A DNA stretch of 64,000 bases, taken from a virus (lineage: Duplodnaviria; Caudoviricetes). This document shows positions 6,872-39,684 of the stretch, one piece after another. The notes beneath the pieces were generated by a model. It had not been told where the DNA came from and searched no databases. It saw only the letters and a program-made list of their open reading frames with translations. Location: IMG/VR virus record IMGVR_UViG_3300020034_000012, positions 1,962 through 65,961 of that record; one strand, given 5' to 3'. Each line of letters begins with the position of its first letter. Position 1 is the first letter of the stretch. Made by a program: the position numbers and the translations under genes.

Positions 6872-8377
6872 TCATCCCATCCGCAGATTGCGTGTGCTTG
6901 CACCCATCAGCTGACGCAGACCCGCAGTGCGCAGCGTGGGCTTGGCCACATCGATCCGAAACTCGCCCTTGTATTCGTTGCTCAGGAAGTTGAACGCGCC
7001 AGACGCTGCATCAATCATGTCGTCGTGCGACACGTACGGATACGCGTGCAGGTATTCAAGCAAGCGGCGTGTCTTCGGTCCGCGCACGATGGACAGCTTG
7101 CGATTGTAGACAGCAGCGGACAGAGGCTTCGCGCGCTCAAGCTTGGTGCCTGTGCTGCGGATGCCATCGACTGAGTAGCCTGGCAAGTGCGTCTGGTATA
7201 CGCGCGTTGCAAGCTTGCCGCTGTGTCCGCCTTCTTCTTCCACCCGCACCGCAGTGCTGCGCCCATCTTCATCCGCCTGCAGCAGCATGCGGCTAGGCAG
7301 CTCACCCACGTCCCACTTGTCTTCCGTTGAATCGAGAATGACGTAGCTCTGATCATTGGCCACGCCCATGCGGCAGCTGGCAGTGAAGTCACCTTTGTCT
7401 TGCTTATCCCCGGTGCGCGTTGGTGCTGGCGTTGCAGCGCAATCCCAGTAGCGCACCCATGCAGTCAAGTTCGGTGGCGCCACATCCAGCAGGATGATGC
7501 GATCGGTCTTGAATACGTCGCCTTCCTGCAGTGCATCCCAGATGCCTTCAAGCAGCTGCGCTTGCTCTACCGGTGACAGCTTCGATAGCGATAGCCGATA
7601 CGCTGCCTGATCTTCATGCGGGTTATCCGCCAGGAACGAAGGCAGGAACACTGCCCCCTGTTCACGTGTCTCTAGGTTGATGAACCGCTGCCACACCCAG
7701 AAGTGACCCACGCCACCGGGGTTACCTGTCGAGCGCATGCGCAGCGGGACCTTGCTAAGCGGTCCTCTCTCTGGCCGTGACAAGCGGCTGAACATGTAGC
7801 GATACATGCTGCCCGTGAAGTGCGTCAGCTCTTCCATCACGATGAGCTGCAGCCGCGCACCCTGGTAGCGGTACTTGCTTTCCTCCCGTTCGATGTGACC
7901 GAAGCTGATAGTGCTGGTTCCGCCCCCGGGGCATTGGAACACAAACCCTGGTAGCTCATGATCCCAGCGCACTCCGGTCCTACCGCGCAGCCATTCGTTC
8001 GCACGCGCAAGCACCGCATCGGGCAGCGTCAGCTGATTGTAGTAGCGCCTGCAAATGAGCGCTGCGTACCCAGGTACATGCACATAGCGTAGTGCACTCT
8101 GCAGAGCGCCATCTGTTTTGCCACCGCGTGCAGCGCCACCGAAGAAGACTTCCAGGATGTGGTCAAGCGCGTGCAGCTCACGTTGCTTGGCCGTAGGCGT
8201 GTGCGGACAGAAGGGGATCGGGTCGTCTGCACCGGGGATGATGCTGCCGTAACCGTTGTCATTGGCAGGTGGTGGAGACGCAGTGAACTGACCGGACTGC
8301 GCGCGCGCCGCTAGCTCTGCGGTCAGTGCCGCAATGCGTGCAGCCGTGCGAGTGGCGCGCGATACGTTCTTACCCAT
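6872..8377 (-). CDS. terL: Terminase large subunit
   Basis: Walker A GGAARGGKT, Walker B IVMEE, STGNPGG, nuclease motifs WDCAA, DFTA, HDDMIDA; TAATG overlap supports start 8377. Confidence 0.95.
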   Translation of the reverse strand: MGKNVSRATRTAARIAALTAELAARAQSGQFTASPPPANDNGYGSIIPGADDPIPFCPHTPTAKQRELHALDHILEVFFGGAARGGKTDGALQSALRYVHVPGYAALICRRYYNQLTLPDAVLARANEWLRGRTGVRWDHELPGFVFQCPGGGTSTISFGHIEREESKYRYQGARLQLIVMEELTHFTGSMYRYMFSRLSRPERGPLSKVPLRMRSTGNPGGVGHFWVWQRFINLETREQGAVFLPSFLADNPHEDQAAYRLSLSKLSPVEQAQLLEGIWDALQEGDVFKTDRIILLDVAPPNLTAWVRYWDCAATPAPTRTGDKQDKGDFTASCRMGVANDQSYVILDSTEDKWDVGELPSRMLLQADEDGRSTAVRVEEEGGHSGKLATRVYQTHLPGYSVDGIRSTGTKLERAKPLSAAVYNRKLSIVRGPKTRRLLEYLHAYPYVSHDDMIDAASGAFNFLSNEYKGEFRIDVAKPTLRTAGLRQLMGASTRNLRMG

Positions 8378-8700
8378 TAGTAATATGGACCTGTGTCGTT
8401 TTCCCAGAATGGAACATGCTTGCGGCAATAGCCACCCGTTGCATTGTCGCAGTCCACGCAGCAGTCAGGGCATGGCCCGTTCTCACACTCCCACAGCTCA
8501 AGCTTATTGAACGATTCACGGATGCGCAGCCCTGCGTTGCCGAACATGACTGCAGCGATGAACGTGTCCAGCTCTGCACGGCTTGCGCCTGCGCGACTGC
8601 TGGCCACGCGCCACATCATCGTGATCATGTCCGTGCTGATGCACGCATCTTCTAGGAGCGCATCCGCAGCTAGCTTCGCTTCTTCCTGGGTGGTGGTCAT
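8377..8700 (-). CDS. Hypothetical protein with Cys-rich C-terminus
   Basis: Coupled to terL; CENGPCPDCCVDC..YCRKH. Confidence 0.6.
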   Translation of the reverse strand: MTTTQEEAKLAADALLEDACISTDMITMMWRVASSRAGASRAELDTFIAAVMFGNAGLRIRESFNKLELWECENGPCPDCCVDCDNATGGYCRKHVPFWENDTGPYY

Positions 8701-8791
8701 CGCCCTAGCTTCTTCCCCGCATCGATCCACATCAAGCGCACGTCATACGCAAGGCAGCATCGATGGCAATGCTTGTAGCCCCGGTTAGGCT

Positions 8792-9070
8792 TCATGAGAA
8801 CGGTCCTCTCTTCATGCGCTGCATCACGGCGGTGGCTTCGATGACTGCACGCTGCGCCTGTGGCGATGCTTCAGCCAAGTCACTGCGGCTGACCTTGCGT
8901 AACGCCAGCTGCTTCTCATCGCCGATCGATACGGTGCTTAGCCGTTCGCACAACATGCAGATATACCAGTCCCCTGACGTAGGCTCGACGCCATCCACGT
9001 CCACGTCCCCGCCGCAGTGAGGACACTTCACCAGCGTGGGTGCGTCAGCCATCAGTGCCATCCGCTTCAA
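8792..9070 (-). CDS. Zn-ribbon protein
   Basis: CPHC...CMLC. Confidence 0.6.
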   Translation of the reverse strand: MKRMALMADAPTLVKCPHCGGDVDVDGVEPTSGDWYICMLCERLSTVSIGDEKQLALRKVSRSDLAEASPQAQRAVIEATAVMQRMKRGPFS

Positions 9071-9290
9071 ACGTCAACACAGCCTGCTTGAACTGCTCTA
9101 CGTCATCAGGGTCCATGTACTTCTGCACTGCCAGCCACGTGTTGTGCACGCTGAACTGGACCCCCTCTGGGAAGCCCCGGTTATAGCCAGACTTGAAGCC
9201 AGCTCTAGCGCCCAGCCAAAAGCCCACTGCGCTGAAGACAACGGCAGTCATGATGATGTCAACCACTTGCGTCAGCCCCCTCTGGTTCAT
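9045..9290 (-). CDS. Small membrane protein
   Basis: N-terminal TM helix then GFKSGYNRG. Confidence 0.55.
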   Translation of the reverse strand: MNQRGLTQVVDIIMTAVVFSAVGFWLGARAGFKSGYNRGFPEGVQFSVHNTWLAVQKYMDPDDVEQFKQAVLTFEADGTDG

Positions 9291-9468
9291 CGGTGAACCG
9301 CTCTACAAGATGCGCGTTCGGTGGAGCGATGACGCACCAGTGGATCGCGTTGTGTCGCAAGATGATGCGTTGGTCTGGCCGCACGTCTTCGATGACAGCC
9401 ACACGCTTGCAGGTAGGGCAGCGCGCGAGCATACCAACGTGTTCGGGTTGTATGCTGGATGTAGTCAC
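9259..9468 (-). CDS. Hypothetical protein
   Basis: Tiles the operon; CPTC. Confidence 0.45.
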   Translation of the reverse strand: MTTSSIQPEHVGMLARCPTCKRVAVIEDVRPDQRIILRHNAIHWCVIAPPNAHLVERFTDEPEGADASG

Positions 9469-9872
9469 CCGGTGATACTCTTTCGTACTATGATCGCCAC
9501 TCCAGCAGCTGCCTCCAATGCCTTGAGTAGCGCATCGCGCTGAGTGCAGATGGTTTCAAAGTCCATCACAGCGCGGGCCATGTCACCACCTGTGCTTGAG
9601 CGCTGCTGCGGCTGTGGATGCAACTCTCGCACGCACCACGCTGTACGCATCGCACGCGCGTGGTCCGGGTCGGTGCGGGTTGTGACACCCAGCCAGCGCC
9701 ATGCGTCTTGCTCGGAATGGAAGACCAGGTTGCACTGGACTGCATCGGGCTTGATTGACTCGCTGTAGTCATGCGGCTGCACGCCAAGGTTAGCCCCGTA
9801 GCCCTGATGCGCTGGGTCATCGACGTTATGCATGATGACGTAGAGCGATGGCGGCAGTTTACTGGTGGTCAT
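9465..9872 (-). CDS. Hypothetical protein
   Basis: Four-base start/stop overlaps at both ends. Confidence 0.55.
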   Translation of the reverse strand: MTTSKLPPSLYVIMHNVDDPAHQGYGANLGVQPHDYSESIKPDAVQCNLVFHSEQDAWRWLGVTTRTDPDHARAMRTAWCVRELHPQPQQRSSTGGDMARAVMDFETICTQRDALLKALEAAAGVAIIVRKSITG

Positions 9873-10231
9873 GGCCGCACCACTTCCTTGCTTGGGTCCC
9901 CGTCCTCTCTGCGCCGTCCACTGGTGGGGTGTCGATGCCATCCGACTGGCGCATCGCCTTCCCCTGTCCACACCTGCGCTGCTGCGATCGCTGCCACGGG
10001 TGTGGGGTAGCAATACGCATCGATGATGCATCGCGAGTGCTGTTCGCTGTAGCACAAGCGCGCCTTGCCGAACGTCATCGGGTAGACGCATACCTCGTAA
10101 CCGTCTGGCAACTCACGCCAGTAGAGTGCGCCTTCTTCCATGCGCTCAGTGGCCGCGCTGGCCTGGTTTGCAACGCGGTGGCCGAATGTCGCGGCCATGA
10201 AATCAATCAGTGCTTTTGCTACCTGGGTCAT
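9869..10231 (-). CDS. Hypothetical phage protein
   Basis: YCY..AIAAAQVW.GEGDAPVGWHRHP.SGRRR; ATGA-coupled to next gene. Confidence 0.65.
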   Translation of the reverse strand: MTQVAKALIDFMAATFGHRVANQASAATERMEEGALYWRELPDGYEVCVYPMTFGKARLCYSEQHSRCIIDAYCYPTPVAAIAAAQVWTGEGDAPVGWHRHPTSGRRREDGDPSKEVVRP

Positions 10232-10514
10232 CGTCTGGGTCCTTTCGTTCTAGCTCATACGCAAGCGAGTCACGCAGCCGCTCTGTCTTGGCGCGGATGG
10301 TCCGCCACACCCAGCTACGCGGCTGCTGCTCATACTCGTCAATCAGCTCCACCATCACCGATGCCTGTTCATGCAGCTCACGCATGGCGTTACGCATCCG
10401 TACGAAGCGCGTGCCTATCCGCTCTAGCGCTGGGTCCGGGTGCTGCACCCACTTGCCTGGTTTTGGTGCTGGCTGGGTGCCGCTCTTCTTCGTTGCCATC
10501 TTGATTTCACGCAT
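10203..10514 (-). CDS. Hypothetical helical protein
   Basis: Tiles the operon; divergent from the 10539 gene. Confidence 0.55.
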   Translation of the reverse strand: MREIKMATKKSGTQPAPKPGKWVQHPDPALERIGTRFVRMRNAMRELHEQASVMVELIDEYEQQPRSWVWRTIRAKTERLRDSLAYELERKDPDDDPGSKSTD

Positions 10515-10538
10515 GTCCCTGTGGGTAGAATCCCCGCC

Positions 10539-11636
10539 ATGGACGATCGGATTGCTGAACTACTGTGTGACAAATGCAGGCCACTTCTGGCTGCAGCTCT
10601 CAAACTCGAACGCGCTGAGCTTCAGCGCAAGCAAGCAAGGGATGAACTGAAGGCGCTGACGCAGGGCAAGATAGCCACTGCGGATGATGATGCCCCGGAC
10701 ATGGTGGCTGCGATGCAGCTGTCCAAGGGGAAGATGAGCGGTAGGACTGCTGCGCCTGCTGCAGTGGTGGATGATGATGACAAGGGGCTGACCCGCCATG
10801 GTGTCCCACGCTTGCGTGCTGCACCGAAGCTTGACCGTCATGAAACCAAGCGACGGATCAACAACGCGCACGATGACATCCTGCGTGTCATCCGCGGGGA
10901 CTTCCCGCTGGCCACGTTGACCCGTCATCTGAGCATTGCACCTGCCAGTCTCTACTTTCGGGTAGAACAGATGATAGGCGCCCACCGCCATGGAGTAGAT
11001 CCACATTGGCAGGCTGGCTATGGCTACAAGCGACACGGCAAACGTGCTTATGACGTACTGAAGAAGAAGGCTGGTAAGGCTTGGAAGGAACCCAGTCAGC
11101 GCACTGCGCCCAGTGGTCCTGCGTTTCCTGAGCGGAGCGGCGCCACGGTCAGCGCTGAACCAAGACGCAAGCCTGGTAGACCACGCAGCGATGCCGCGCC
11201 TAGACCCACGATCACCACTCCAGACCTGCAGGCGCTGAGTAACGGCGAAGTCCATAGGTTCGCCATCAGTAAGAAATATAAAATCGGCTACACCACGGTC
11301 AACCGACAGCTTGAAGCCTTTCGCGCGCGCTTCGGTGCGGACGTCCCGGAGGACGGCACGTCTGCGCAAGCGGATGCCCCGGTGGCTGAAGAAGACCCGG
11401 CCGCACGCATCACGGACACGGACCTGATGAGACTCAGGTTGAAGCGCATAGCCGTGTCCGTGATCGCTGACCGCTATGCGCTGACTGATGATGAAGTCCG
11501 TGCGCAGCTGTCCGAGTGGATGACCGCTAGGGTGGTGGATACCGTGGTTGCAGCGGAAGAGCTGAAGCGGACAAGCAACGGGGATAGCGCACCGCCCACG
11601 CTCGAAAGCATTGCACAGCAGGTGCTGCGGAACTGA
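10539..11636 (+). CDS. Putative multi-HTH/AT-hook DNA-binding protein, antisense to neighbours
   Basis: TAGAAT 7 nt before ATG; RRKPGRPR AT-hook-like motif; three HTH-like segments (LATLTRHLSIAPASLY, AISKKYKIGYTTVNRQL, VIADRYALTDDEVRAQL). Confidence 0.65.
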   Translation: MDDRIAELLCDKCRPLLAAALKLERAELQRKQARDELKALTQGKIATADDDAPDMVAAMQLSKGKMSGRTAAPAAVVDDDDKGLTRHGVPRLRAAPKLDRHETKRRINNAHDDILRVIRGDFPLATLTRHLSIAPASLYFRVEQMIGAHRHGVDPHWQAGYGYKRHGKRAYDVLKKKAGKAWKEPSQRTAPSGPAFPERSGATVSAEPRRKPGRPRSDAAPRPTITTPDLQALSNGEVHRFAISKKYKIGYTTVNRQLEAFRARFGADVPEDGTSAQADAPVAEEDPAARITDTDLMRLRLKRIAVSVIADRYALTDDEVRAQLSEWMTARVVDTVVAAEELKRTSNGDSAPPTLESIAQQVLRN

Positions 11637-11641
11637 GCGCA

Positions 11642-11977
11642 TCAGTTCACCCGGTGGTCCTTCGGTGGCTGCTGCCGGGACGATGACCGCGCGCGCAACA
11701 TCTCTTCAGCGCGTGCGGTCATCTCTTCGTAGGCTTCTATCCTGCCTGCGATGCGTATCATCTGAATGCGTAGCCGCACTATCTGAACGCTGCTGACTAC
11801 GGCGATCACCAGGTTGACCCCTATAAGCCCGTCGCGCGCTAGATGGCGTATCTGTTCTGTGGGTCCGAAAAACCACACTGCACTAAGAGGGATGTTGAAC
11901 AGCGCCCAGCAGCAGACCGATGGCGCGCGATGCCACCAACGGTGCAGCCGTTCCTTCATCCGGGTCAGCGCGCGCAT
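11642..11977 (-). CDS. Two-TM membrane protein
   Basis: Two hydrophobic segments; TGATG overlap. Confidence 0.55.
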   Translation of the reverse strand: MRALTRMKERLHRWWHRAPSVCCWALFNIPLSAVWFFGPTEQIRHLARDGLIGVNLVIAVVSSVQIVRLRIQMIRIAGRIEAYEEMTARAEEMLRARSSSRQQPPKDHRVN

Positions 11978-12288
11978 CAGTCCGCCTTAGCCTTGCGCTC
12001 AGCTGCCCTGATGATGGTGTGCTGCCTGATGATGGCCTGCGCTGTGTCAACGTTCTGAAGCAGCAGGTCTAGCGGTAGGTCCTGGTCAACCGTATTGCAG
12101 CTGTATCGCCACGTGAGTGCAGACGCCAACACCAGTACTGAAGTGGCATCGCTGTAGCCTTGCTCACGTAGAGCGAAGATGATTGCATCTGCATGCTGCA
12201 GCGCGTCATGCATGGGCAGGCTGACAAGCTCATCGTCATCCGCGTCATCCGCGATCGCTTCATCGGTGGGCTGCTCTTCATCAGTCAT
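11977..12288 (-). CDS. Hypothetical protein
   Basis: Acidic N-terminus; coupled overlaps. Confidence 0.6.
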   Translation of the reverse strand: MTDEEQPTDEAIADDADDDELVSLPMHDALQHADAIIFALREQGYSDATSVLVLASALTWRYSCNTVDQDLPLDLLLQNVDTAQAIIRQHTIIRAAERKAKAD

Positions 12289-12512
12289 CAGTCATGCCCT
12301 GGTCCTTGGTGCATCGTGGCCAGCTTGCACTCAGCGGGTGAGTGCGTTGCTTGCACGCATGCCTTGAACGTCTCTGCTTCGATGGTTCTCTTTTTCGTGT
12401 CGCAGTCCGTAACGATGAACATGAACGCTAGGAAGGCTGTGAGCACCAGCGCAGTGATGAGCGCTGGTCCGAGCCACTCACCCACGAAGTTGTCGTCACC
12501 TGGCCTAGTCAT
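12288..12512 (-). CDS. Small membrane protein
   Basis: TM helix, Cys pair; coupled overlaps. Confidence 0.6.
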   Translation of the reverse strand: MTRPGDDNFVGEWLGPALITALVLTAFLAFMFIVTDCDTKKRTIEAETFKACVQATHSPAECKLATMHQGPGHD

Positions 12513-12781
12513 ACCTTCCCCGCACGCGTCGCTTCATTCATGCGTCTGGCGACTTCATCCAAGTTGGGTGCATCCACGATGGCGCCGCCCATCTTCTGGA
12601 TCCACTCAGCGCGGGGTATGCCCATCTTGTCTAGCGTGGTGGCCAGCACCATCACCAGCGCCATCTCAACATCCGCTGCGGGTTGCCGCTGGCACACGTG
12701 GATTAGTGCGAACGCAAGCCGGGTGATTCTGTCCGTAGCTTCATTCAGCTCAGCGTCAGTGAACCTGGGTTTGTCAGTCAT
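12509..12781 (-). CDS. Hypothetical protein
   Basis: ATGA overlaps at both ends. Confidence 0.6.
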   Translation of the reverse strand: MTDKPRFTDAELNEATDRITRLAFALIHVCQRQPAADVEMALVMVLATTLDKMGIPRAEWIQKMGGAIVDAPNLDEVARRMNEATRAGKV

Positions 12782-13020
12782 GGTGCGGCCACCCAGTCAT
12801 CAGCCGGGTCACCCAGCACAAGCACCATCTGCTTCTCTAAGTGCCGCATGCCTTCGATGCTTGCCATCTGCGGGGAGTGCAGCTCACCCCACGGACCATA
12901 CAGGTGGCGCTGCAAGCGTTCGCTCCACTCGACGCTGAGTATCAGCACGTCATCGGGGAACGCCCAGTGTGGTTTGCGTATGCGGCTGATGCCTTGCTCA
13001 ACTGCTTCACTGATGGTCAC
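12778..13020 (-). CDS. Hypothetical protein
   Basis: Overlaps at both ends; RIRKPHWA, YGPW. Confidence 0.6.
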   Translation of the reverse strand: MTISEAVEQGISRIRKPHWAFPDDVLILSVEWSERLQRHLYGPWGELHSPQMASIEGMRHLEKQMVLVLGDPADDWVAAP

Positions 13021-13295
13021 GGCACCCTGCCAATCACTTCACGCAGCTGCTGCGCGCGTTGCCGCAGCTTGTCCACGTCCATCGGTGCAGGCCACGCATC
13101 GGGCGCAGGGATGAGCGCTGCCACTGCTGCAGCTGCGTCCCGCAGTTCGGTCAGCAGTTTGACGCTTGCTATGCAGTCCTGCTGCAGGTCCAACATCTGC
13201 GACCCAGCTGCATCCGCACACGCTTTGGCTAGGGCCAGCTCCATCTTCAATAAGCGACACTCGGGGCAGGTGCCTTCACGTGGTGCTTCGGTCAT
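13017..13295 (-). CDS. Hypothetical protein
   Basis: CPEC; coupled. Confidence 0.55.
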   Translation of the reverse strand: MTEAPREGTCPECRLLKMELALAKACADAAGSQMLDLQQDCIASVKLLTELRDAAAAVAALIPAPDAWPAPMDVDKLRQRAQQLREVIGRVP

Positions 13296-13542
13296 CGCTA
13301 TCCCCCTTGGGTAGTTCGCTTATCAGATCACCGATCCGCTGCAGGTCCCGCATCATGTCAGCCTGCCCATCCATACGCGCGTTCAGCAGGTCACATGCGT
13401 GCGTGAGTTTGACCACCGTGCGCTCTAGCCTTTCGATGCGCTCTGTGAGCAGCCGCTCCCCGCGCCTACTGCAGCCAAGCTTATGCACCTTGCCCATGTG
13501 ACATTCAGGGCAGGTGCGCGTTTCAAGCTTCTTCATCGCCAT
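13276..13542 (-). CDS. Hypothetical protein
   Basis: CPEC..H..GC then coiled coil. Confidence 0.55.
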   Translation of the reverse strand: MAMKKLETRTCPECHMGKVHKLGCSRRGERLLTERIERLERTVVKLTHACDLLNARMDGQADMMRDLQRIGDLISELPKGDSDDRSTT

Positions 13543-13777
13543 CCCCCCGTGGTGCAGCTACCCACTGCGCTTTGCCAATCACCACGTAGCCACCGTGGTC
13601 AACGCGCAGGAACATCTGGCTGGGTGGCTCGCCACGCTTCTCAGCGTGGAGCGCATAGCAAAGCACTCCGCCTACACGCAGCTCATCGACGATACACAGC
13701 AGCGGTCCCCACCCAGCCGAGTGGTCCGGGTCTAGCTGGATGACGTCGCCAGCGGTAACGCTCCATGCGTCAGTCAT
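13523..13777 (-). CDS. Hypothetical beta-rich (SH3-like) protein
   Basis: AGDVIQLDP, CIVDE, GGVLCY. Confidence 0.6.
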   Translation of the reverse strand: MTDAWSVTAGDVIQLDPDHSAGWGPLLCIVDELRVGGVLCYALHAEKRGEPPSQMFLRVDHGGYVVIGKAQWVAAPRGDGDEEA

Positions 13778-14004
13778 GGCTTGGCCTTGACCGTTGGTTC
13801 AGGCAGTGACAGCCCCGAAGCCTTCAGCTCTAGCGCAATCGCTTCTTCAGTCTCACCCCACACGATGACCACTTCGCCAGCGAAGCCGAACGGTTCACCT
13901 GCGAACTTGATGGGCTTGCCTTCCTGCAATCGCTGCAGGTTCAGCGTGGACAGACCCAGCAGCATCAGCTTGCGTCCCCCGATGTCACCACCTGCTTTGA
14001 TCAT
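13774..14004 (-). CDS. Hypothetical phage protein
   Basis: LLGLS..NLQRLQEGKPI, GETE; ATGA overlaps. Confidence 0.65.
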   Translation of the reverse strand: MIKAGGDIGGRKLMLLGLSTLNLQRLQEGKPIKFAGEPFGFAGEVVIVWGETEEAIALELKASGLSLPEPTVKAKP

Positions 14005-14237
14005 GACAGCACCACCCCTGGCTTGCTGACGTCTTCGGGCACAGACATCAGTTCTACCGCCAAGTCTCGGACGTCGATGAGTGCAGCATCGATCGTGCGT
14101 GACTCTGCCTCGCTCACCACGATGAGCGCAGCCAGCACCAGCATCACGTCCGTGGGCAGACCCTGGTCACAGAAGTGTTGTGCTAGCTGCTGATATGTGA
14201 TGTGCGCGTGCGTCAGTAGCGTTATGTCTATCTTCAT
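14001..14237 (-). CDS. Hypothetical protein
   Basis: ATGA overlaps at both ends. Confidence 0.5.
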   Translation of the reverse strand: MKIDITLLTHAHITYQQLAQHFCDQGLPTDVMLVLAALIVVSEAESRTIDAALIDVRDLAVELMSVPEDVSKPGVVLS

Positions 14238-15403
14238 GGTTCGTATCCCGTGCACGCGGTGCAGTCTGCGCATACGCCAGCGATACCGGTGTGCGATGCG
14301 GGTGGGTGGCCGCACGTGCACTCCAAGCGTGCCCTACCAGCCAGCAGCTGCTGATTGCTGAGCATGTCCACCTGACCACGTGACCCCTGGATCAGAGGCG
14401 CTGCATCCATGCGGTTCCCATGCGCCAGCGCATCGAGCACACCACCCACCCATGCATGGTTGGTCCGCAGCTTCCCGACGATGACCATCACGCGGTCAAG
14501 CTCATCGGCCGCAAGCTTCTTCTCTCTGCGCTCAGCGTGCAGCGCATCGAGTGCTTGCAGGTTCCGCTTGCGCAGGTCAGTCAGTAGCGCGTTATGGTCT
14601 TCGGCCAAGATGATGGACGGTGCGCCATTGAGTTGACGCAGTAGCTCAGCGCGCTGAGCATCGGTCACGCTACCAATGGTCACCCCGTTCTGATGACTCC
14701 ACAGTGCGCGCGCGCTCTGCTCATTCTCCCAGATGAGCAGGTCACACTCGGACTCAAGTTCCTTGCAGCGCACACATGGCTTCACCGTATAGGTCATGGC
14801 CACACGGTCCGCCTCTGATGCTGCCAGCTGCTCAGTCAGCTCAGCGTTCGCAGTCTCAAGCTGCTGGATGCGCTGCACGTAGCTGGCTGCTACCCGCAGT
14901 GCTGCACCCACCACGGGGTCAGTGGATTCCAGCTCTAGCAGTTCACGCTGAAGGTCAGCCAGTCCTTCGGTCCTGTCGCGCACCACGGGTGGACCACCCA
15001 GTGCATCGCGCACATCCCAGCACCGGTTATCGCCTTCCACTTTGTTCAGCACAGCCACTGCTTCGCTGACCATCGACATGATGAGCAAGCTTGATATTGG
15101 GTTCTCACGTGCATCCGCTTGCTTAGTCCAGCGTGCGCACAGTGCGCTGACTTCTTCCAATGCACCCCACAGCACATCGATGCGCTGGCCATAGAGGGAC
15201 AGTAGCTGGCCGCGTCTGTTCATCAGTTCATGCTCAGTGCGGAACTGATCATGGTGTGCACGTTGTCTCGCAACGCGCAGCCAGTGCATGCGCTGGGTTG
15301 CTTCAGCGTCATCGGTCTGCAGTGCTTCATCCACCACCGCACCCGCCGCTGCAATCAGCTCTTCAATCGGTCCCATGGTCCCCGTCCTTTGCTGGCTCTT
15401 CAA
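14234..15403 (-). CDS. Coiled-coil protein with C-terminal Cys/His cluster
   Basis: 389 aa; heptads; CTCGH..H..CADCTAC. Confidence 0.7.
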   Translation of the reverse strand: MKSQQRTGTMGPIEELIAAAGAVVDEALQTDDAEATQRMHWLRVARQRAHHDQFRTEHELMNRRGQLLSLYGQRIDVLWGALEEVSALCARWTKQADARENPISSLLIMSMVSEAVAVLNKVEGDNRCWDVRDALGGPPVVRDRTEGLADLQRELLELESTDPVVGAALRVAASYVQRIQQLETANAELTEQLAASEADRVAMTYTVKPCVRCKELESECDLLIWENEQSARALWSHQNGVTIGSVTDAQRAELLRQLNGAPSIILAEDHNALLTDLRKRNLQALDALHAERREKKLAADELDRVMVIVGKLRTNHAWVGGVLDALAHGNRMDAAPLIQGSRGQVDMLSNQQLLAGRARLECTCGHPPASHTGIAGVCADCTACTGYEP

Positions 15404-15854
15404 TCAGCTCTTCAGGTCCAATCAGCTCCACTACACCCACGTCATAGGCAAGCTTGAGCGCTGCATCTGCAAGGTCCACGATGGCGTCCGCACGCAGGCA
15501 TATCAGGCGCGGCATCTGTCCCTGTTGCGCGAGACTCGTACCTTCCCCACTCTCGATGGCCTGCGCGTGGATGCGGACTGCATGCCATGCCAAGTGGTTT
15601 GCCTGGATGACTTCAAGCAGGTTCGCCGCATCCATGTCACGCACGTAGTTCGCCTCCAGTCTGGCGCACTGCTGCTTGACGTCAGCGGTCACCTGCTTCA
15701 GGCGATCCAGCTCTGTGATTGCCAACTCCCGCAGCCGCAGCACTTCATCCCGCAGCACCATGGCGCACTTGGCTGCACGTCCCTTGCCGCTGAAGCCATC
15801 GTTGCGCGCTACCTCTGCAAGCACAGCGTCCACGCTATCGGGGTCATGCGTCAC
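15363..15854 (-). CDS. Hypothetical helical protein
   Basis: Tiles the operon; LRDEVLRLR. Confidence 0.6.
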   Translation of the reverse strand: MTHDPDSVDAVLAEVARNDGFSGKGRAAKCAMVLRDEVLRLRELAITELDRLKQVTADVKQQCARLEANYVRDMDAANLLEVIQANHLAWHAVRIHAQAIESGEGTSLAQQGQMPRLICLRADAIVDLADAALKLAYDVGVVELIGPEELIEEPAKDGDHGTD

Positions 15855-16120
15855 GGCTCATTCTCCATGAAGAAGAGCACGCGTTCAGGGCAGTCACACG
15901 TGCGGTGCTTGCTATCACGCAGGCGCTGGACGTAACCGTGCAGCACCAGCGTGCGCGCGCGCATGCGGGTCACGTCTGCACGCAGCGCGCGCACTTCATC
16001 CACCAACCATTCCGCTTCCTGCAGTGAGTGGCGCATGGGTCCACCCACGTCGGCTGCTTCAGCGTCCACGTACTTGATTGCTTGCTCCACCTTCTCAGGT
16101 GCTGGCCGTGGTCTGGTCAT
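15851..16120 (-). CDS. Hypothetical protein
   Basis: WLVDEVRALR; coupled. Confidence 0.6.
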   Translation of the reverse strand: MTRPRPAPEKVEQAIKYVDAEAADVGGPMRHSLQEAEWLVDEVRALRADVTRMRARTLVLHGYVQRLRDSKHRTCDCPERVLFFMENEP

Positions 16121-16749
16121 CGCGTACCCCGTATGCCAGGGGGTGGGCCAAGCTCAGGCTTGCAGTCCACCAAGCCCGGGTGCATGTCCATCGGCTGACC
16201 GTGCGCTGCATCGACTGTCGCATCGCACCGCTGACACCAGCGTGTGCGATCAGCAGGCAGTGCGACTGCATCCGCATCCATGTCAATCACCGTGTCCACC
16301 GTATCGTTCGGTAGCCACACCATATCAACCAGCAGCACCAGCGAGTGCAGGTCCGGGGGGATGGCCACCAGCCTGCCCTGCGATGGGTTGCCGATGAACT
16401 TATCCACCATCGCGTGCACCTGCAGCTTGATGGCGCGCAGCTGACTCAGCCACTGCTTGGCGGACTTGCCGTAGCTCAGCCGCCCATCATCGATCGCCTT
16501 CTCAAACTCAGCGCGATAGGCGTTGACCTTCAGGTCCGCCATGCGTTCGGTCTGCACGCGTGCGTCATGCTGCTGCATGGCGAACTGGCACCACGCGGTG
16601 GATGCGGCGCGCGCTTCGGCCAGATCAGTCAGCAGCTTCTCACCTTCCTTGCGGTGCAGTGCGATGTCAGCCAGCGCAGCAGCCAGGTCATCGTTCAGTG
16701 CCGTGGCTGCCGCCTGCCAGCGCGCGCACTCAGGGCACGGGTCAGTCAT
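16117..16749 (-). CDS. Hypothetical protein
   Basis: CPEC, coiled coil, CQRC; coupled. Confidence 0.6.
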   Translation of the reverse strand: MTDPCPECARWQAAATALNDDLAAALADIALHRKEGEKLLTDLAEARAASTAWCQFAMQQHDARVQTERMADLKVNAYRAEFEKAIDDGRLSYGKSAKQWLSQLRAIKLQVHAMVDKFIGNPSQGRLVAIPPDLHSLVLLVDMVWLPNDTVDTVIDMDADAVALPADRTRWCQRCDATVDAAHGQPMDMHPGLVDCKPELGPPPGIRGTR

Positions 16750-16878: not shown

Positions 16879-17526
16879 TCAGCCGGTTTGCTCTCGCCTT
16901 GCGTCATCGTCCCCACCATCGGCTGCGCCTAGCCTGCGTAGGTCAGGCGTATGCCCGTTGTCATTCGCGGATGGGGCTGCTTCTACCACGGTGGCTTGCA
17001 CGAAACCAAGGGATTGCAACTCGCTGACCATCTCTGCATTGGTCATCGACGCAGGCGCACGGTCCTCGTGCTCGATGAGCAGCTCAGCACGGCTGCCGTA
17101 GTGCATCGGTCTACGCCGCTCTAGCCACCACGCCGCAGCACGCCAGTCCTTGGCAGCCTGCTGGTGGATGTGCCTGGTGTAGCCCCCTTCAGCGCGCGCA
17201 TACGCCCGCTGCACTTCAGTCACCAGGTGCACAAACTCCAAGCGCACCGGGTCAATCAGCGCCAGTAGGTCCGCCTCATCGGGGTCCGTGTCCGGGTGCT
17301 GCGCGTCCCACGCCGCGCGTGCATCAGCAATGGCGGTGCGCCCCCGTCGCAGCCACGCGTAGAACGTCTGGCTGGTCACCCCTTCCTGTTCAGCCGCGCA
17401 CTCGACGCTGACCCCGTACGCAAGGAACTTGCAGATGTTCGCACGCAGGGTGGGGTTCAACTTGTAGCGCCCGATGCCCACCACGGTGGGTCTGCGTGCG
17501 CGCTTTGCTTTGGACTTCTTCGCCAT
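16879..17526 (-). CDS. terS: Probable terminase small subunit (HTH)
   Basis: HTH VECAAEQEGVTSQTFYAWLRRG and DWRAAAWWLERR motif seen in a TerS family. Confidence 0.75.
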   Translation of the reverse strand: MAKKSKAKRARRPTVVGIGRYKLNPTLRANICKFLAYGVSVECAAEQEGVTSQTFYAWLRRGRTAIADARAAWDAQHPDTDPDEADLLALIDPVRLEFVHLVTEVQRAYARAEGGYTRHIHQQAAKDWRAAAWWLERRRPMHYGSRAELLIEHEDRAPASMTNAEMVSELQSLGFVQATVVEAAPSANDNGHTPDLRRLGAADGGDDDARREQTG

Positions 17527-18393: not shown

Positions 18394-18396
18394 GGC

Positions 18397-22042: not shown

Positions 22043-22801
22043 TCATCGCTCTTCCCCTGCTGCGGTAAGCAAACTCTGCTGCACTGGCTTCGGTTGCTCA
22101 TCTCCGAATCGCATCACGGGTGTGTAGCCACGCGCAATACGCGCTTGCGCTTTGGCATACGTGACCGGGTCCATCTCCGCTCCGATGGCGCGCCGTCCCT
22201 CGATTGCTGCAGCCAATAGGGTGGTGGCACCCCCCGCACACGGATCGCAGATGAGATCCCCGGGGCGTGAGTAGTCCCGCACCAGGTGCCGCATCAAGGC
22301 CAGTGGCTTGCCACCGATGTGGCTGCCCGGTTCGCGCAGCGCATTGTACCAACACGGCAGAGAACCCCACGAAGCGAAGGCCTTTGATCGTGGCCGCGCT
22401 ACCAGCAAGTACACGGCACCGCTTCCCGGACCATCGCCACCCAGCCGGGGACGATGGGTCAGCACGGGGACAGGTGCGAAGTCAGCGCGTCCAGCTGCCA
22501 CATACGCATCGCGGTACGGGGTAATCAGATCATCACTGGTCATGCAGACCATCCAGCTGCGGGTGCGCTGCGCCCAGTGTGCCACGAACGAAGCGACATC
22601 ATCCGCAGTCCAGCGCGCATAGCTCAGGTCAGTACGCTCAAAGCGCGTATCCATCTCTGCGTTGCCATCGTGCGTGCGCTGCCCATACGGCGGGTCCGTA
22701 ATCAACGCATCGCACTCGACGTCAGCCAGCACGTCTTGCCACTGGCCGCACCGCAGCTCTATCGCACTGCCGTTGTCATTGGCTGCGGTGGTCACGTCCA
22801 C
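22043..22801 (-). CDS. DNA amino-methyltransferase (N6-A/N4-C, beta class)
   Basis: Catalytic TDPPY before H..GKP and SAM-binding DPCAGGATT, AIGAE. Confidence 0.92.
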   Translation of the reverse strand: MDVTTAANDNGSAIELRCGQWQDVLADVECDALITDPPYGQRTHDGNAEMDTRFERTDLSYARWTADDVASFVAHWAQRTRSWMVCMTSDDLITPYRDAYVAAGRADFAPVPVLTHRPRLGGDGPGSGAVYLLVARPRSKAFASWGSLPCWYNALREPGSHIGGKPLALMRHLVRDYSRPGDLICDPCAGGATTLLAAAIEGRRAIGAEMDPVTYAKAQARIARGYTPVMRFGDEQPKPVQQSLLTAAGEER

Positions 22802-24398: not shown

Positions 24399-25325
24399 TC
24401 ATGCTGCCACCCGAAGCTTGATGGGTAGTGCTGCGCCCACTTCACCAGAGCGCACAGCCCAGCTGCCAATGCAGATGGCGGTAGCTCTGTCTTGCTCGAT
24501 GGTCTGCGCGTCTGCGTCTTCCACGCCAATCTTCTTCAGCTGGATAACAGCCCAGTCCCGTTCGAAATCTGCGTGAGTCTTGCCCCTGCCCAGTGTCTTC
24601 TTCAGGCCACCACCCCACAGCTGGCCGCGCCAGCGGGATGGGACCACGGACACACGGCGAGTCTTCAAGCCACCCGCTGCACTCCATGCCTCAAGCCATG
24701 CCTGCCGCGCTTGCCCTAGCGCGATGAGCGTGGATGCACCACGCCCCGGATACACGAAGCCTGCCGCACTCTCAGTCACCAGCACCGCGGGACGATCGTA
24801 TGCATGCACCAGCTTGCATACATGGATGAGGCTATCGCGCTGGTCCTTCTTCGCTTCCCCCGATGAGCGCAGCTCACCATCCACCCAGATGGACCAGCCG
24901 CTATTGTTCGCTGTGTCCACCGCAAGCAGCGCGCATCGCCATGGCTGCAGCACTGCATCGGGCTTCGGCTTCTTCGGTCTGCCCATCGGGCGCGATGCTA
25001 GGCGGGTGCGTTGCCGCTCGAGTTGCGCCGCTAGCCGCTCGGCTTTCTTACTGACCGCGGTTGCACGTGGCTCTGCTTGCAAGCGGCCAGCTAGGTACAG
25101 CTCTTCAGCAGTCACACCGTTCAGGTCACGCCGATTGTAGGGACCGATGAGAACGATCACCCCTTCGGTCAGCACGTCATGGACCTTCCAGGTCTGCCCC
25201 TGAAAGAGCCACGTCTGACCTTTGCGGATGAGCGGCTGCCCGTTGTCATTCGCTGGCTGGTTCACGCATGCATCGGTGTGCGGATACTGACCGCACACGC
25301 ACGCGCCCGTTCCCTCTGTGCTCAT
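24399..25325 (-). CDS. RuvC-like Holliday junction resolvase with N-terminal extension
   Basis: LLAVDTANNSGWSIW, VLVTES, VVPSRWR, DRATAICIG: RNase H-fold acidic residues in RuvC order. Confidence 0.75.
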   Translation of the reverse strand: MSTEGTGACVCGQYPHTDACVNQPANDNGQPLIRKGQTWLFQGQTWKVHDVLTEGVIVLIGPYNRRDLNGVTAEELYLAGRLQAEPRATAVSKKAERLAAQLERQRTRLASRPMGRPKKPKPDAVLQPWRCALLAVDTANNSGWSIWVDGELRSSGEAKKDQRDSLIHVCKLVHAYDRPAVLVTESAAGFVYPGRGASTLIALGQARQAWLEAWSAAGGLKTRRVSVVPSRWRGQLWGGGLKKTLGRGKTHADFERDWAVIQLKKIGVEDADAQTIEQDRATAICIGSWAVRSGEVGAALPIKLRVAA

Positions 25326-30212: not shown

Positions 30213-30401
30213 ATGCATCCGGTCGAGCTTGGTTCGGAAACGCACCCCGCGAATGACAACGCGGTGGCATCGTACCTTGAAACGCCGCAAGCCGAACGCG
30301 CACAGCTTGGGACCACCCTGAGTGTGTTGCGTCTGGCGAAGTGCGCCCCACTGACTGCCCGTCAGCTGCTGCGTCTTCAGTCCGCAATCGAGTCAGCCTA
30401 G
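30213..30401 (+). CDS. Small hypothetical protein containing ANDN
   Basis: 62 aa ORF in gap after repressor. Confidence 0.45.
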   Translation: MHPVELGSETHPANDNAVASYLETPQAERAQLGTTLSVLRLAKCAPLTARQLLRLQSAIESA

Positions 30402-36547: not shown

Positions 36548-36973
36548 ATGTCCAAAGATGCAACGGCAGTAAGCGACGATGAGGGGGCGCGTTCGGCCAC
36601 GCGCTTCATCGAACATGTAGCCGATGGCCAATGCGCTGCGGATCTGTCGCACGCAATCCATAAGCTGGGCTTGCGCCTGCTTGCTGAAACCAAGCAGCGC
36701 GCGGACAAGTGCACGGGCGAAGTTACGCTCAGGCTGAAGTTCATTTCAGAGCCTAGTGGGATCGTCGGCGTGGGCTACGAAGTCAACAGTAAGGAACCGA
36801 AGTCCAAGACCAGCGGTTCAGTCTTCTGGCTGACCAAAGGTGGCAACTTCAGCACGGACAATCCGCGGCAGCAGTCATTGCCAGGCATCCGCGAAGTGAA
36901 ACGTAACGATGAAGTCCGTGACCTGGGTGCAGTCGACCCAGCCAATGACAACGCTGAACCTAGGAGCGTGTGA
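36548..36973 (+). CDS. YfdP-like protein (partner of DUF2303)
   Basis: GEVTLRL, FWLTKGGNFSTDNPRQ; directly upstream of the DUF2303 gene. Confidence 0.6.
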   Translation: MSKDATAVSDDEGARSATRFIEHVADGQCAADLSHAIHKLGLRLLAETKQRADKCTGEVTLRLKFISEPSGIVGVGYEVNSKEPKSKTSGSVFWLTKGGNFSTDNPRQQSLPGIREVKRNDEVRDLGAVDPANDNAEPRSV

Positions 36974-38537: not shown

Positions 38538-38541
38538 TGCG

Positions 38542-39237
38542 ATGCCAATGGCTATGTGGAAGCAGCACCTGACGTGGACCAACGCCAGCAATGCAACTAC
38601 CGCCACCACTGTCACACCCATCATCGTTTGGGATGCAGCGGCAAACGTGACCAGCGGATCGTCAGCGTGGACATCTGTCACATGGAACACGGACGGGACT
38701 GCTGCATACGATATCACTGCCGCAGCGCTAGCAGCTGCGCGCAAGTGGTTGGTGCAATGGCCGCCCCCGAACTTCGTACAACCATTGCCGCAGCCAGCGG
38801 ACATCAGACAAGAGACACCTGAAGAGCGCAATGCACGGTGGGCCATGCGGGATCGCTACGCACAAGAGCAGGCAGGCCATGACCATGCAGCGCGCTTGGC
38901 ATCGCGTGGCAGGTTCTTAGAACACGAACGTGCGAACGCGCGCGCTGAGAAGCTGCTGGTGGAAATGCTGTCACCACACCAAGCAGAAGAGCTGCGCGCA
39001 AGCGGACACTTCCACGTGCGGCTGATGAACGGCAGGCGCTACCGCATCAGCCGCGGTCAGCATGGCAACGTGGTTGAAGTCGATGGTGCGGGACGTGGTC
39101 TGCGTTCGCTGTGCGTGCAACCGGTGGGTCACCTGCCTGATGCAGACGCGATGCTGGCGCAGAAGCTGTGGCTTGAAACGGATGAGGCTACGTTACTGAG
39201 AACTGCGAACATCACCCCGATGCGCGCGCGCGCGTAG
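38542..39237 (+). CDS. Partner of the diglycine protein, Cys-containing C-terminal domain
   Basis: W/T/S/N-rich N-terminus, charged helix, then AEKLL..GRRYRI..GNV..LCVQP..LP.AD.MLAQKLWLETDE..AN. Confidence 0.75.
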   Translation: MPMAMWKQHLTWTNASNATTATTVTPIIVWDAAANVTSGSSAWTSVTWNTDGTAAYDITAAALAAARKWLVQWPPPNFVQPLPQPADIRQETPEERNARWAMRDRYAQEQAGHDHAARLASRGRFLEHERANARAEKLLVEMLSPHQAEELRASGHFHVRLMNGRRYRISRGQHGNVVEVDGAGRGLRSLCVQPVGHLPDADAMLAQKLWLETDEATLLRTANITPMRARA

Positions 39238-39246
39238 GTGAAACCC

Positions 39247-39399
39247 ATGATCCCCTGGCCGCTATGTGCCCTAGTTTGCCTGGCCTGTTTCTTCTCTGGG
39301 CTGTGGCTCGGATACGGCCAGGGGATCAGTCACCGTCGATGGTTTGACCAGACGAAACACCGGATAGACAACGGTGATGACGGGGAAGAAACCAAGTAG
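39247..39399 (+). CDS. Small membrane peptide
   Basis: Manual translation MIPWPLCALVCLACFFSGLWLGYG..., 50 aa. Confidence 0.4.
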   Translation: MIPWPLCALVCLACFFSGLWLGYGQGISHRRWFDQTKHRIDNGDDGEETK

Positions 39400-39465
39400 C
39401 TGCCTAGCCTTGCAAGAATGCAAGGCGTGAATCAACTGGCATGGTATGACACAGGGGTAGAGCCG

Positions 39466-39684
39466 ATGACGCCAGCCAACGATAATGACGATCCCATTGT
39501 GGCTGAGCTGCGCTCGCTTCAAGCGGATTGCGAGGCGTTCGCTAAGCGGATGAACGAACGGCTGGCCAAGCTTCAGGCGCGCGTGGCAGGGAAGCCTACG
39601 CGCGCGAAAGCTGGCGCACCTACGCCAGAGGACTGGGATATTGTTTACCGCGCCAAGGCTCGCAAGCAGCGGCGCATGGGGTAG
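39466..39684 (+). CDS. Small basic protein upstream of integrase (possible directionality factor)
   Basis: Ends 3 nt before int; basic C-terminus; function inferred from position only. Confidence 0.55.
   Translation: MTPANDNDDPIVAELRSLQADCEAFAKRMNERLAKLQARVAGKPTRAKAGAPTPEDWDIVYRAKARKQRRMG

What the first reader, a model, noticed from the sequence alone, without database searches (positions are those of the whole stretch)
8255..39486. tmRNA-tag-like ANDN motif in seven unrelated phage proteins
Seen: ANDN occurs in TerL (8255-8266), TerS (16957-16968), DNA methyltransferase (22772-22783), RuvC-like nuclease (25242-25253), ORF 30213 (30249-30260), YfdP-like protein (36941-36952) and the pre-integrase ORF (39475-39486). 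It is always in frame, near a terminus or in a low-complexity linker, and preceded by P, A or S. Six copies share the DNA GCSAATGACAACG; the seventh uses synonymous codons (GCC AAC GAT AAT). Established: SsrA tags begin this way (E. coli AANDENYALAA, Caulobacter AANDNFAEEFAVAA); the N-terminal part binds adaptor SspB and the terminal AA binds ClpX. The RuvC-like protein also ends in VAA, and Cro and the helicase end in AA. Inference: the phage may use a portable SspB-docking motif to time turnover of DNA-acting proteins or to titrate SspB/ClpXP. The conserved codons leave open an RNA/DNA-level role.
Basis: partly seen in the sequence, partly recalled or inferred. Interest (0 to 1): 0.8.

Follow-up and report, generated by a model that had tools for sequence, protein, structure and literature searches.

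The report
Phage proteins carrying tmRNA-tag-head motif
Seven unrelated proteins of this soil phage carry the same four-residue peptide (Ala-Asn-Asp-Asn) in their floppy ends, a selected motif that copies the start of the bacterial "destroy-me" tag and probably plugs them into a host factor that reads that tag, though nothing has been measured.

Summary
ANDN occurs exactly seven times in the window, at the stated coordinates, always in the sense frame. A shuffled proteome gives 0.11.

It is a peptide-level motif under selection, not a DNA signal:
- Relatives keep ANDN in TerL (11 of 13) and in an N-terminal extension of the methyltransferase (5 of 120, all on contigs of sizes also listed for this clade's TerL or 308-aa homologues).
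- It sits at three different places in 3 of 7 homologues of the 308-aa protein.
- Unrelated phages are also ANDN-rich, with varying codons: 16-3 has 18 copies; IMG/VR records have 7, 5 and 19.

Six copies share AAT-GAC-AAC (p about 1e-4 under the phage's codon-pair usage). This is only partly explained.

This phage has a head-only flavour, P-ANDN-G/A/D, without the Ala-Ala endings seen in 16-3-type phages. The host is unknown, and SspB docking is plausible but untested.

The scan noted ANDN motifs before on other DNA (84 notes). Three full-text searches found no paper on it.

The parts
8254..8266 (-). ANDN copy 1 (GCCAATGACAACG), in the linker between the N-terminal helix and the ATPase domain of TerL (gene 6872-8377)
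   Evidence: TerL assignment. The linker is a coil with pLDDT 30-37. ANDN is kept in 11 of the 13 closest TerL sequences.
16956..16968 (-). ANDN copy 2 (GCGAATGACAACG), in the C-terminal tail of the small-terminase-like protein (16879-17526/17586), 25 residues before the stop
   Evidence: The PHROG terminase-small match ends at residue 162-168 of 215, before the motif. A 48%-identical representative has PAPANENA in its tail.
22771..22783 (-). ANDN copy 3 (GCCAATGACAACG), in an N-terminal extension of the N6/N4 DNA methyltransferase (22043-22801)
   Evidence: The extension with ANDN occurs in 5 of 120 homologues, on contigs whose lengths match those listed for clade TerL or 308-aa homologues.
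25241..25253 (-). ANDN copy 4 (GCGAATGACAACG), near the N-terminus (residues 25-28) of a 308-aa protein of unknown family (24399-25325)
   Evidence: A 7-residue indel (NDNGQPL) is absent from the 68-85%-identical homologues. Two other homologues carry ANDN elsewhere.
30249..30261 (+). ANDN copy 5 (GCGAATGACAACG), residues 13-16 of a 62-aa ORF (30213-30401)
   Evidence: No family match, so that the ORF is a gene is not shown.
36941..36953 (+). ANDN copy 6 (GCCAATGACAACG), 6 residues before the stop of a 141-aa phrog_204 protein (36548-36973)
   Evidence: The PHROG match covers residues 7-119; the motif is at 132-135.
39475..39486 (+). ANDN copy 7, written GCC AAC GAT AAT, residues 20-23 of an 88-aa ORF just upstream of the integrase gene (39418-39684)
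   Evidence: It differs from the other six at all three synonymous sites.

Best explanation
ANDN is a short linear peptide motif, here P/A/S-A-N-D-N-G/A/D. Selection has installed it in disordered ends and linkers of unrelated phage proteins, and it copies the first residues of the tmRNA (ssrA) tag.

Shown:
- The motif is far above chance.
- It is conserved or re-created in relatives, through small in-frame indels and terminal extensions.
- It lies outside conserved domains.
- It also abounds, with varying codons, in phages that share almost no genes with this one.

Inferred:
- The only factor known to read A-A-N-D at the head of a tag is the SspB adaptor, which tethers cargo to ClpX.
- So the motif most likely docks these proteins (TerL, TerS, a methyltransferase, a 308-aa protein and three small proteins) onto an SspB-type adaptor.
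- This phage's copies lack the Ala-Ala end that ClpX needs. The likely effect is therefore tethering, which would help ClpXP act on weak degrons, or competition for the adaptor. Autonomous tag-like degradation is less likely.
- The identical codons of six copies probably reflect avoidance of ACGAC plus shared descent of copies, not a nucleic-acid function.
For: - Enrichment: 7 copies against 0.11 expected. Background in 1.45 million residues of TerL-anchored phage and prophage ORFs is 3 ANDN, no more than other permutations.
- Conservation in relatives:
  - TerL: 11 of the 13 closest sequences keep ANDN while the flanks and spacing change. One has GNDN and one has none.
  - Methyltransferase: ANDN in 5 of 120 homologues, as an N-terminal add-on. 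All five lie on contigs whose lengths match those listed for clade TerL or 308-aa homologues.
  - 308-aa protein: 3 of 7 homologues carry ANDN, at three different alignment positions.
- Peptide level, not DNA level:
  - The seventh copy differs at all three synonymous sites.
  - The 52%-identical TerL relative reads GGC AAC GAC AAC.
  - Phage 16-3 has 18 ANDN, against 0-2 for the other permutations counted in its first 50 kb, with mixed codons.
  - IMG/VR records G001, G003 and G005 have 7, 5 and 19 copies with mixed codons.
- Host reader: tblastn of this phage's 94 ORFs against seven ANDN-rich records finds the methyltransferase in three and two weak hits in one, nothing else. The phage encodes no SspB.
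- Tag likeness:
  - The alphaproteobacterial MAG G008 has the tag ANDNFESISAIAA beside sspB.
  - In 16-3, G005, L107, L134, L058 and G003, 17 of 18 ANDN copies within 11 residues of a C-terminus end in Ala, and 16 end in AA, VA or CA.
- Disorder: the TerL motif lies in a coil with pLDDT 30-37. The motif is outside the family-matched region in 4 of 4 proteins with a family.
Against: - No binding, tethering or turnover was measured.
- The host is unknown, so neither its tag nor the presence of sspB is known. The tRNA-like half at attP was not found in 401 Pseudomonadota (up to 2 mismatches), 151 Acidobacteriota or 151 Alphaproteobacteria (up to 3 mismatches).
- SspB is reported only from some proteobacteria (review PMC8138137, passages). 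Its Pfam family rang in 2 of 14 control genomes.
- This phage's flavour differs from the tag-like one:
  - None of the 4 C-terminus-proximal copies in this phage, G001 and G002 ends in Ala.
  - AA termini are not enriched (2 of 94).
  - The residue after ANDN is G, A or D in 16 of 16 copies, whereas the one alpha-type tag read here has F.
- Only 1 of the 4 tags read here starts ANDN. The others start ANDD, ANDE and ANNT.
- Six identical codon triplets (p about 7.5e-5) are not fully explained by peptide selection.
Confidence: 0.38

Rival explanations
1. ANDN is a selected peptide motif, but its reader is not SspB. It could be another host protein, or an enzyme that cuts or modifies at Asn-Asp-Asn. 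The likeness to the tmRNA tag head is then convergent or irrelevant for this head-only flavour.
For: - The P-ANDN-G/A/D flavour (this phage 7 of 7, G001 7 of 7, G002 2 of 2) has no Ala endings, so it does not look like a whole tag.
- The host was not placed in any SspB-bearing group.
- An earlier scan note reports ANDN in a Pseudomonas phage (unchecked). The one gammaproteobacterial tag read here is ANDDNYALAA.
Against: - No other reader of this sequence is known to me (recalled).
- The same four residues with the same P/A preference occur in phages whose C-terminal copies are plainly tag-shaped. That argues for one reader for both flavours.
Confidence: 0.33
2. The 13-nt word GCSAATGACAACG is the functional unit. 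It would be a DNA or RNA signal, such as a repressor 'stoperator', an uptake-type word or an sRNA target, and ANDN is only its translation.
For: - Six exact copies with no halo of near-copies: 3 copies with 1-2 mismatches against 4.65 expected.
- All copies lie on the sense strand.
- All use the minority Asn codon AAT (23% of Asn). P(6 or more of 7) is 7.5e-5 under the phage's own codon-pair usage.
- Copies 2 and 4 share 17 nt.
Against: - The seventh copy keeps the peptide with all three synonymous sites changed.
- The 52%-identical TerL relative keeps NDN with AAC.
- G001, with the same peptide flavour, uses AAC-GAC-AAC in 5 copies and AAT-GAC-AAC in 2.
- 16-3 and G005 use mixed codons.
- The word has no copy between genes or on the antisense strand.
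- It occurs 0-1 times in five bacterial genomes searched.
- xAC-GAC codon pairs are avoided genome-wide (16 observed against 63 expected). That removes the commonest alternative spelling.
Confidence: 0.1
3. The copies are neutral by-products of a copy-and-paste process, such as template switching or short-patch conversion, that spreads a 13-17-nt patch. They have no function of their own.
For: - The codons are identical in six copies.
- Copies 2 and 4 share a 17-nt identity.
- Copy 4 is a recent 7-residue insertion, absent from an 85%-identical homologue.
Against: - The TerL and methyltransferase copies persist across relatives of 51-83% identity while their flanks change.
- Independent phages show the same peptide with other codons.
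- A neutral patch would also be expected out of frame or between genes, and none is.
Confidence: 0.05

Closest known systems
Native tmRNA (ssrA) tag, read by the SspB adaptor and ClpXP (E. coli AANDENYALAA; alphaproteobacterial tags starting ANDN)
   Same: - The same first residues, A-N-D-N, preceded by A or P.
- Location in an exposed, unstructured stretch.
- The alphaproteobacterial MAG read here has the tag ANDNFESISAIAA.
- The E. coli tag and SspB as its adaptor are listed in review PMC8138137 (passages).
- The Caulobacter tag string occurs in three papers (search listing only).
   Different: - The motif is encoded in the gene, not added by trans-translation.
- It is mostly N-terminal or internal.
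- It has no Ala-Ala end in this phage.
- The residue after ANDN is G, A or D rather than an aromatic.
- That SspB reads residues 1-4 and 7 of the tag is recalled, not checked here.
C-terminal ssrA-like tags on the integrase and repressor of mycobacteriophages with integration-dependent immunity (Broussard et al. 2013)
   Same: A phage writes a tmRNA-tag-like degradation signal into its own genes, to tie protein life-time to ClpXP. I read this as described in the introduction of PMC9635641 (passages). I did not see the 2013 paper itself.
   Different: - That case involves two regulatory proteins and the C-terminal tail of the tag only.
- Here seven unrelated proteins carry the head of the tag only, and neither the integrase nor a repressor is among them.
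ANDN-rich temperate phages such as Rhizobium phage 16-3
   Same: The same tetrapeptide, with the same A/P before it, sits in the tails of many unrelated proteins. There are 18 copies in 16-3, against 0-2 for the other permutations in its first 50 kb.
   Different: - In 16-3 the C-terminal copies look like whole tags. All 5 copies within 11 residues of a C-terminus end in Ala.
- The residue after ANDN is variable in 16-3.
- This phage shares no detectable protein with 16-3 at E 1e-3.
- I found no paper describing the motif.
Internal SspB-binding site of RseA, and phage-encoded SspB (Pseudomonas phage pf16)
   Same: - SspB can deliver a substrate through a site away from the ClpX degron. RseA(1-108) is listed as an SspB-delivered ClpXP substrate in PMC8138137 (passage).
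- A phage meddling with the SspB pathway has a precedent: pf16 encodes an SspB homologue (PMC5587285, passages).
   Different: - The RseA site does not resemble ANDN (recalled).
- This phage encodes no SspB.
Dispersed DNA words: stoperators of mycobacteriophage L5, DNA uptake sequences
   Same: A 13-nt asymmetric word, repeated exactly and co-oriented with transcription. The properties of stoperators and uptake sequences are recalled.
   Different: - The word is never found between genes.
- The peptide, not the DNA, is what relatives and other phages keep.

Membership tests
ssrA-tag mimic (SspB/ClpXP-read degron) | Sequence matches the adaptor-binding head of a tmRNA tag (A-A-N-D...) | tested here: met
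   - Seven copies of [P/S/A]-A-N-D-N.
- An alpha-type tag read here starts ANDN.
- The other three tags read start ANDD, ANDE and ANNT.
ssrA-tag mimic (SspB/ClpXP-read degron) | C-terminal position, with a terminal Ala-Ala (ClpX degron) about 7-10 residues after the head | tested here: not met
   - Only 1 of 7 copies is within 11 residues of a C-terminus, and that protein ends in SV.
- Only the 308-aa protein ends in AA, and its motif is N-terminal.
- AA ends: 2 of 94 ORFs against 1.3 expected.
ssrA-tag mimic (SspB/ClpXP-read degron) | Host has SspB and a tag beginning ANDN | tested here: inconclusive
   The host was not identified.
ssrA-tag mimic (SspB/ClpXP-read degron) | Binding to SspB and SspB/ClpXP-dependent turnover | not testable with these tools
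   This needs bench work. The one in-silico complex job gave no verdict (see Tried and rejected).
Short linear peptide motif under selection | Enriched over composition, located in disordered regions, kept or re-created in relatives with synonymous variation | tested here: met
   enrichment; disorder, outside domains; relatives; codon variation.
Dispersed DNA signal (stoperator-like or uptake-sequence-like word) | The DNA word is conserved regardless of frame and strand, also between genes, and is kept letter for letter in relatives | tested here: not met
   - All 6 copies are in one frame inside ORFs.
- The 52%-identical relative and other ANDN phages vary the codons.
- DNA of the close relatives could not be obtained.
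Dispersed DNA signal (stoperator-like or uptake-sequence-like word) | High copy number in the host genome | tested here: inconclusive
   The host is unknown. The word occurs 0-1 times in each of five soil-type bacterial genomes.

The most novel reading that the evidence does not exclude
A lineage of soil phages uses a head-only copy of the tmRNA tag, P-ANDN-G/A/D without the ClpX-binding Ala-Ala. The purpose would not be to have its proteins destroyed. It would be to occupy or borrow the host's tag-reading adaptor: abundant phage proteins would jam SspB-type delivery, blunting the host's tmRNA quality-control and stress proteolysis, or would use the adaptor as a scaffold at ClpX. New copies would be installed by a templated copy-and-paste of a 13-17-nt patch, which would explain the letter-identical codons.
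Probability: 0.15. Interest if true: 0.85.

Novelty: new variant of a known kind. Interest (0 to 1): 0.6.

Why it matters
If the motif docks on the host's tag-reading adaptor, phages would have a portable four-residue handle for wiring any protein into, or against, the host's ClpXP proteolysis. That would be a general layer of phage-host control not described in the papers I could search.

It is directly testable with peptides, with ANDN-to-AAAA mutants and with sspB/clpX hosts. Phage 16-3 and its Sinorhizobium host offer a genetic system.

This window adds three things:
- a second, head-only flavour of the motif;
- evidence of how copies are gained and moved, through small in-frame indels and terminal extensions;
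- a clear separation of peptide-level from DNA-level conservation.

Tried and rejected
- **DNA of close relatives.** This was the decisive test of DNA against peptide, and I could not get it.
  - IMG/VR and GTDB hold no close relative of TerL, TerS or the 308-aa protein.
  - The JGI scan gave only the phage's own contig and two contigs with a 52%-identical TerL.
  - Logan runs X3, X4, X6 and X7 were laid on 7001-27000. The table of differing letters was cut to 40 of about 1100 rows, so the motif positions could not be read. I draw nothing from that call, except that an X7 contig breaks homology at 25256/25322, next to copy 4.
- **SspB docking in silico.** I sent the SspB substrate-binding domain of the alphaproteobacterial MAG G008 with the 50-residue TerS tail. 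The verdict was 'no answer' (score 0.01, mark 0.34). This is no evidence either way.
- **Host search.**
  - The 40-nt tRNA-like half at attP was not found in 401 Pseudomonadota (up to 2 mismatches), 151 Acidobacteriota or 151 Alphaproteobacteria (up to 3 mismatches).
  - The Atlas look-up of the integrase gave mixed phyla.
  - Cluster look-ups gave no names.
- **tmRNA gene at a genomic copy of the word.** The single genomic copy of the 13-mer in G010 is not in a tmRNA gene.
- **Target-site duplication.** Copy 4 is flanked by CAGCC repeats, but the other five copies are not. I rejected this idea.
- **Translational-enhancer or 5'-leader reading.** Rejected, because the TerL copy follows a conserved 37-residue helix and two copies are C-terminal.
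- **Structure of the 308-aa protein.** The AlphaFold model is too poor (mean pLDDT 48) to name a fold, so I ran no fold search.
- **Literature.** Lessner 2007, Chien 2007 and Chowdhury 2010 are not held. What SspB-alpha reads in the tag is therefore recalled only. No supplementary files were consulted.

Full report
**What the window is.** The window is 64,000 bp of a 65,961-bp IMG/VR virus record rated complete. All of it is phage.
- On the - strand lie a Mu-type portal and protease, TerL (6872-8377), a small-terminase-like gene (16879-17526), an N6/N4 DNA methyltransferase (22043-22801), a DUF927 primase-helicase (26618-29263), and tail and lysis genes at 46-64 kb.
- On the + strand lie recombination genes and a tyrosine integrase (39688-40965).
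- All public runs that hold it are soil metagenomes: 7 runs from 5 studies, two of them possibly the source.

**The observation.** A six-frame scan finds ANDN exactly seven times, at the coordinates given, each in the sense frame of an ORF.
- Six copies are the exact 13-mer GCSAATGACAACG. That is 6 matches against 0.00 expected in 100 shuffles, and the 10-mer AATGACAACG occurs nowhere else in the record.
- There is no halo of near-copies: 3 copies with 1-2 mismatches against 4.65 expected.
- The seventh copy is GCC AAC GAT AAT.
- Residue shuffles of a crude 94-ORF proteome (my own ORF picking, not a gene caller) give 0.113 ANDN on average and at most 2 in 2000 shuffles. Six copies are in that set, and the seventh is in an ORF the set dropped.
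- The other 11 permutations of A,N,D,N occur 0-1 times, and every NDN is an ANDN.
- In 1.45 million residues of ORFs from TerL-anchored phage and prophage loci, which were not chosen for the motif, ANDN occurs 3 times. That is no more than its permutations.
- 'Always in frame' means little by itself. The four codons are all RNY, and 100 of 116 IMG/VR stretches that hold the word also read it as ANDN in an open frame of at least 50 aa.

**Where the motif sits.** In the four proteins with a family match, the motif lies outside the matched domain:
- TerL: the match starts at residue 59 and the motif is at 38-41.
- TerS: the match ends at 162-168 of 215 and the motif is at 187-190.
- Methyltransferase: the match starts at 27 and the motif is at 7-10.
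- phrog_204 protein: the match covers 7-119 and the motif is at 132-135.

An AlphaFold model of TerL (mean pLDDT 60) puts the motif in a coil of pLDDT 30-37, between an N-terminal helix and the ATPase domain. The model of the 308-aa protein is poor (mean pLDDT 48). Neither Pfam nor PHROGs supports the name 'RuvC-like' for that protein.

**Relatives (protein level).** The relatives exist only in Logan/ENA assemblies.
- TerL: 11 of the 13 closest sequences (51-100% identity, own included) have ANDN just upstream of the conserved IP(Y/F)CPH. The flanks and the spacing differ. One sequence has GNDN and one has nothing there. None of the other 107 listed homologues has [AG]ND[NE] anywhere.
- Methyltransferase: 5 of 120 homologues carry ANDN, always in a short N-terminal add-on before IELRxG. 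Their contig lengths (66,526; 64,603; 67,506; 65,256; 41,333 bp) are those listed for clade TerL or 308-aa homologues. The other 115 lack ANDN, and those whose N-termini I printed mostly start directly at the domain.
- 308-aa protein: the 85%, 68% and 69%-identical homologues lack the seven residues NDNGQPL at our site. One of them has PANDNA near its C-terminus instead. A 49%-identical homologue has AANDND in a different N-terminal extension. That makes 3 of 7 with ANDN, at three different positions.
- TerS: at 50% clustering, 1 of 150 representatives (our own) has ANDN. A 48%-identical one has PAPANENA in its tail.

So the motif is kept where it is old and re-created elsewhere by small in-frame changes. 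This is how short linear motifs in disordered regions behave.

**DNA or peptide?** The evidence favours the peptide.
- The seventh copy keeps the peptide with all three synonymous sites changed.
- The only relative whose DNA I could read, a JGI contig with a 52%-identical TerL, has CCG GGC AAC GAC AAC GGG at the homologous place.
- Rhizobium phage 16-3 has 18 ANDN, against 0-2 for any permutation in its first 50 kb. Its codons are mixed and the next residue varies.
- Four IMG/VR records, caught only because they hold one copy of the word, have 7, 2, 5 and 19 ANDN with mixed codons.
- Over all 116 such stretches there are 35 extra ANDN, against 2-7 for each of ten other permutations (NDNA, 33, is inflated by overlap with ANDNA). 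The extra copies are concentrated in 14 stretches.

The word is therefore not the conserved entity. Yet this phage's six copies are identical at all three synonymous sites although AAT is only 23% of Asn codons.
- Under the phage's own codon-pair usage, P(AAT GAC AAC) is 0.15, and six or more of seven has p = 7.5e-5.
- Part of the explanation is a strong genome-wide avoidance of xAC-GAC pairs (16 observed against 63 expected). That removes AAC-GAC.
- The rest may be shared descent. Copy 4 is a recent insertion and shares 17 nt with copy 2.
- This point stays open until the relatives' DNA is read.

**Who reads it?**
- tblastn of this phage's 94 ORFs against seven other ANDN-rich records finds only the methyltransferase (in three) and two weak hits in G001. 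None hits 16-3.
- There is no shared phage-encoded candidate reader, and the phage has no SspB. That points to a host factor.
- The motif equals the head of alphaproteobacterial tmRNA tags. In the alphaproteobacterial MAG G008 the tag is ANDNFESISAIAA, and its gene lies directly upstream of sspB. A Variovorax, a Steroidobacteraceae and a Planctomycetota genome have ANDERFALAA, ANDDNYALAA and ANNTYALAA.
- In 16-3, G005, L107, L134, L058 and G003, 18 ANDN copies lie within 11 residues of a C-terminus. Seventeen of these proteins end in Ala and 16 end in AA, VA or CA, which makes them whole-tag look-alikes. About 14-18% of their six-frame ORFs end in Ala.

**Two flavours.** This phage, G001 and G002 differ from the tag-like group.
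- The residue before ANDN is P in 12 of 16 copies.
- The residue after it is G, A or D in 16 of 16.
- None of their 4 C-terminus-proximal copies ends in Ala.
- In this phage AA termini are at chance (2 of 94 against 1.3 expected), and only the 308-aa protein has both ANDN and AA.

So this phage has the head of the tag without the ClpX-binding tail. If an SspB-type adaptor reads it, the expected effect is tethering or competition, not autonomous tag-like degradation. A different reader cannot be excluded.

**Host.** It remains unknown.
- No close prophage exists in 185,579 species genomes.
- The attP tRNA-like half was not found in the samples searched.
- SspB is reported only from some proteobacteria (PMC8138137, passages).

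**What is in print.**
- Full-text searches for ANDN with phage, for SspB with phage, ssrA tag and mimic, and for ssrA-like with bacteriophage and ClpXP gave no paper on this motif.
- The nearest precedents are the C-terminal ssrA-like tags on Int and Rep of mycobacteriophages (as told in PMC9635641, passages) and an SspB homologue in Pseudomonas phage pf16 (PMC5587285, passages).
- The scan itself has 84 earlier notes in at least 71 genomes on ANDN and SspB. I checked that lead only for phage 16-3 and for the IMG/VR records above.

**Verdict.**
- ANDN is a peptide motif under selection. A DNA role is unlikely, though the identical codons are not fully explained.
- The tag-head reading is the best available but untested, and it is weaker here than in 16-3-type phages because the tail of the tag is missing and the host is unknown.

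Noticed in passing
whole record (window 1-64000): The phage almost lacks several short palindromes. TTAA-containing 5-mers occur 0-1 times and AATT-containing ones 1-2 times, against 44-65 expected. GGCC- and CCGG-containing 5-mers are about tenfold depleted, and AGGAG/CTCCT are also low. This looks like restriction-site avoidance.
   Followed up: no
coding regions of the window: There is a strong codon-pair bias. N/H/D/Y codons ending in C are rarely followed by GAC (16 observed against 63 expected). The phage uses xAT-GAC or xAC-GAT instead, so the word ACGAC is avoided.
   Followed up: partly
window 22043-22801 (methyltransferase): Near-identical strains carry different methyltransferase bodies behind the same ANDN N-terminus. 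A 62%-identical variant (P0135) is listed on a 67,506-bp contig, the length of the phage's own JGI contig. Run X4's contig replaces 22276-22685 by 462 other letters.
   Followed up: no
L332/L329 (G008:C5:91245-92100): In an alphaproteobacterial MAG, the two-piece tmRNA gene (tag ANDNFESISAIAA) lies directly upstream of sspB.
   Followed up: no
G005, phage 16-3 (L327) and L134: ORF tails ending in the SSB-type DD(D/E)(I/V)PF carry one or two ANDN copies in the tail just before it.
   Followed up: no
ARAGORN calls no tRNA in the window.
   Followed up: partly
window 25256-25322: A contig of run X7 (a relative at about 90% identity) joins 25256 to 25322 with 5 other letters between. The relative's 308-aa protein therefore lacks the Cys-rich first 22 residues, and homology resumes right at the P-ANDN codons.
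   Followed up: no
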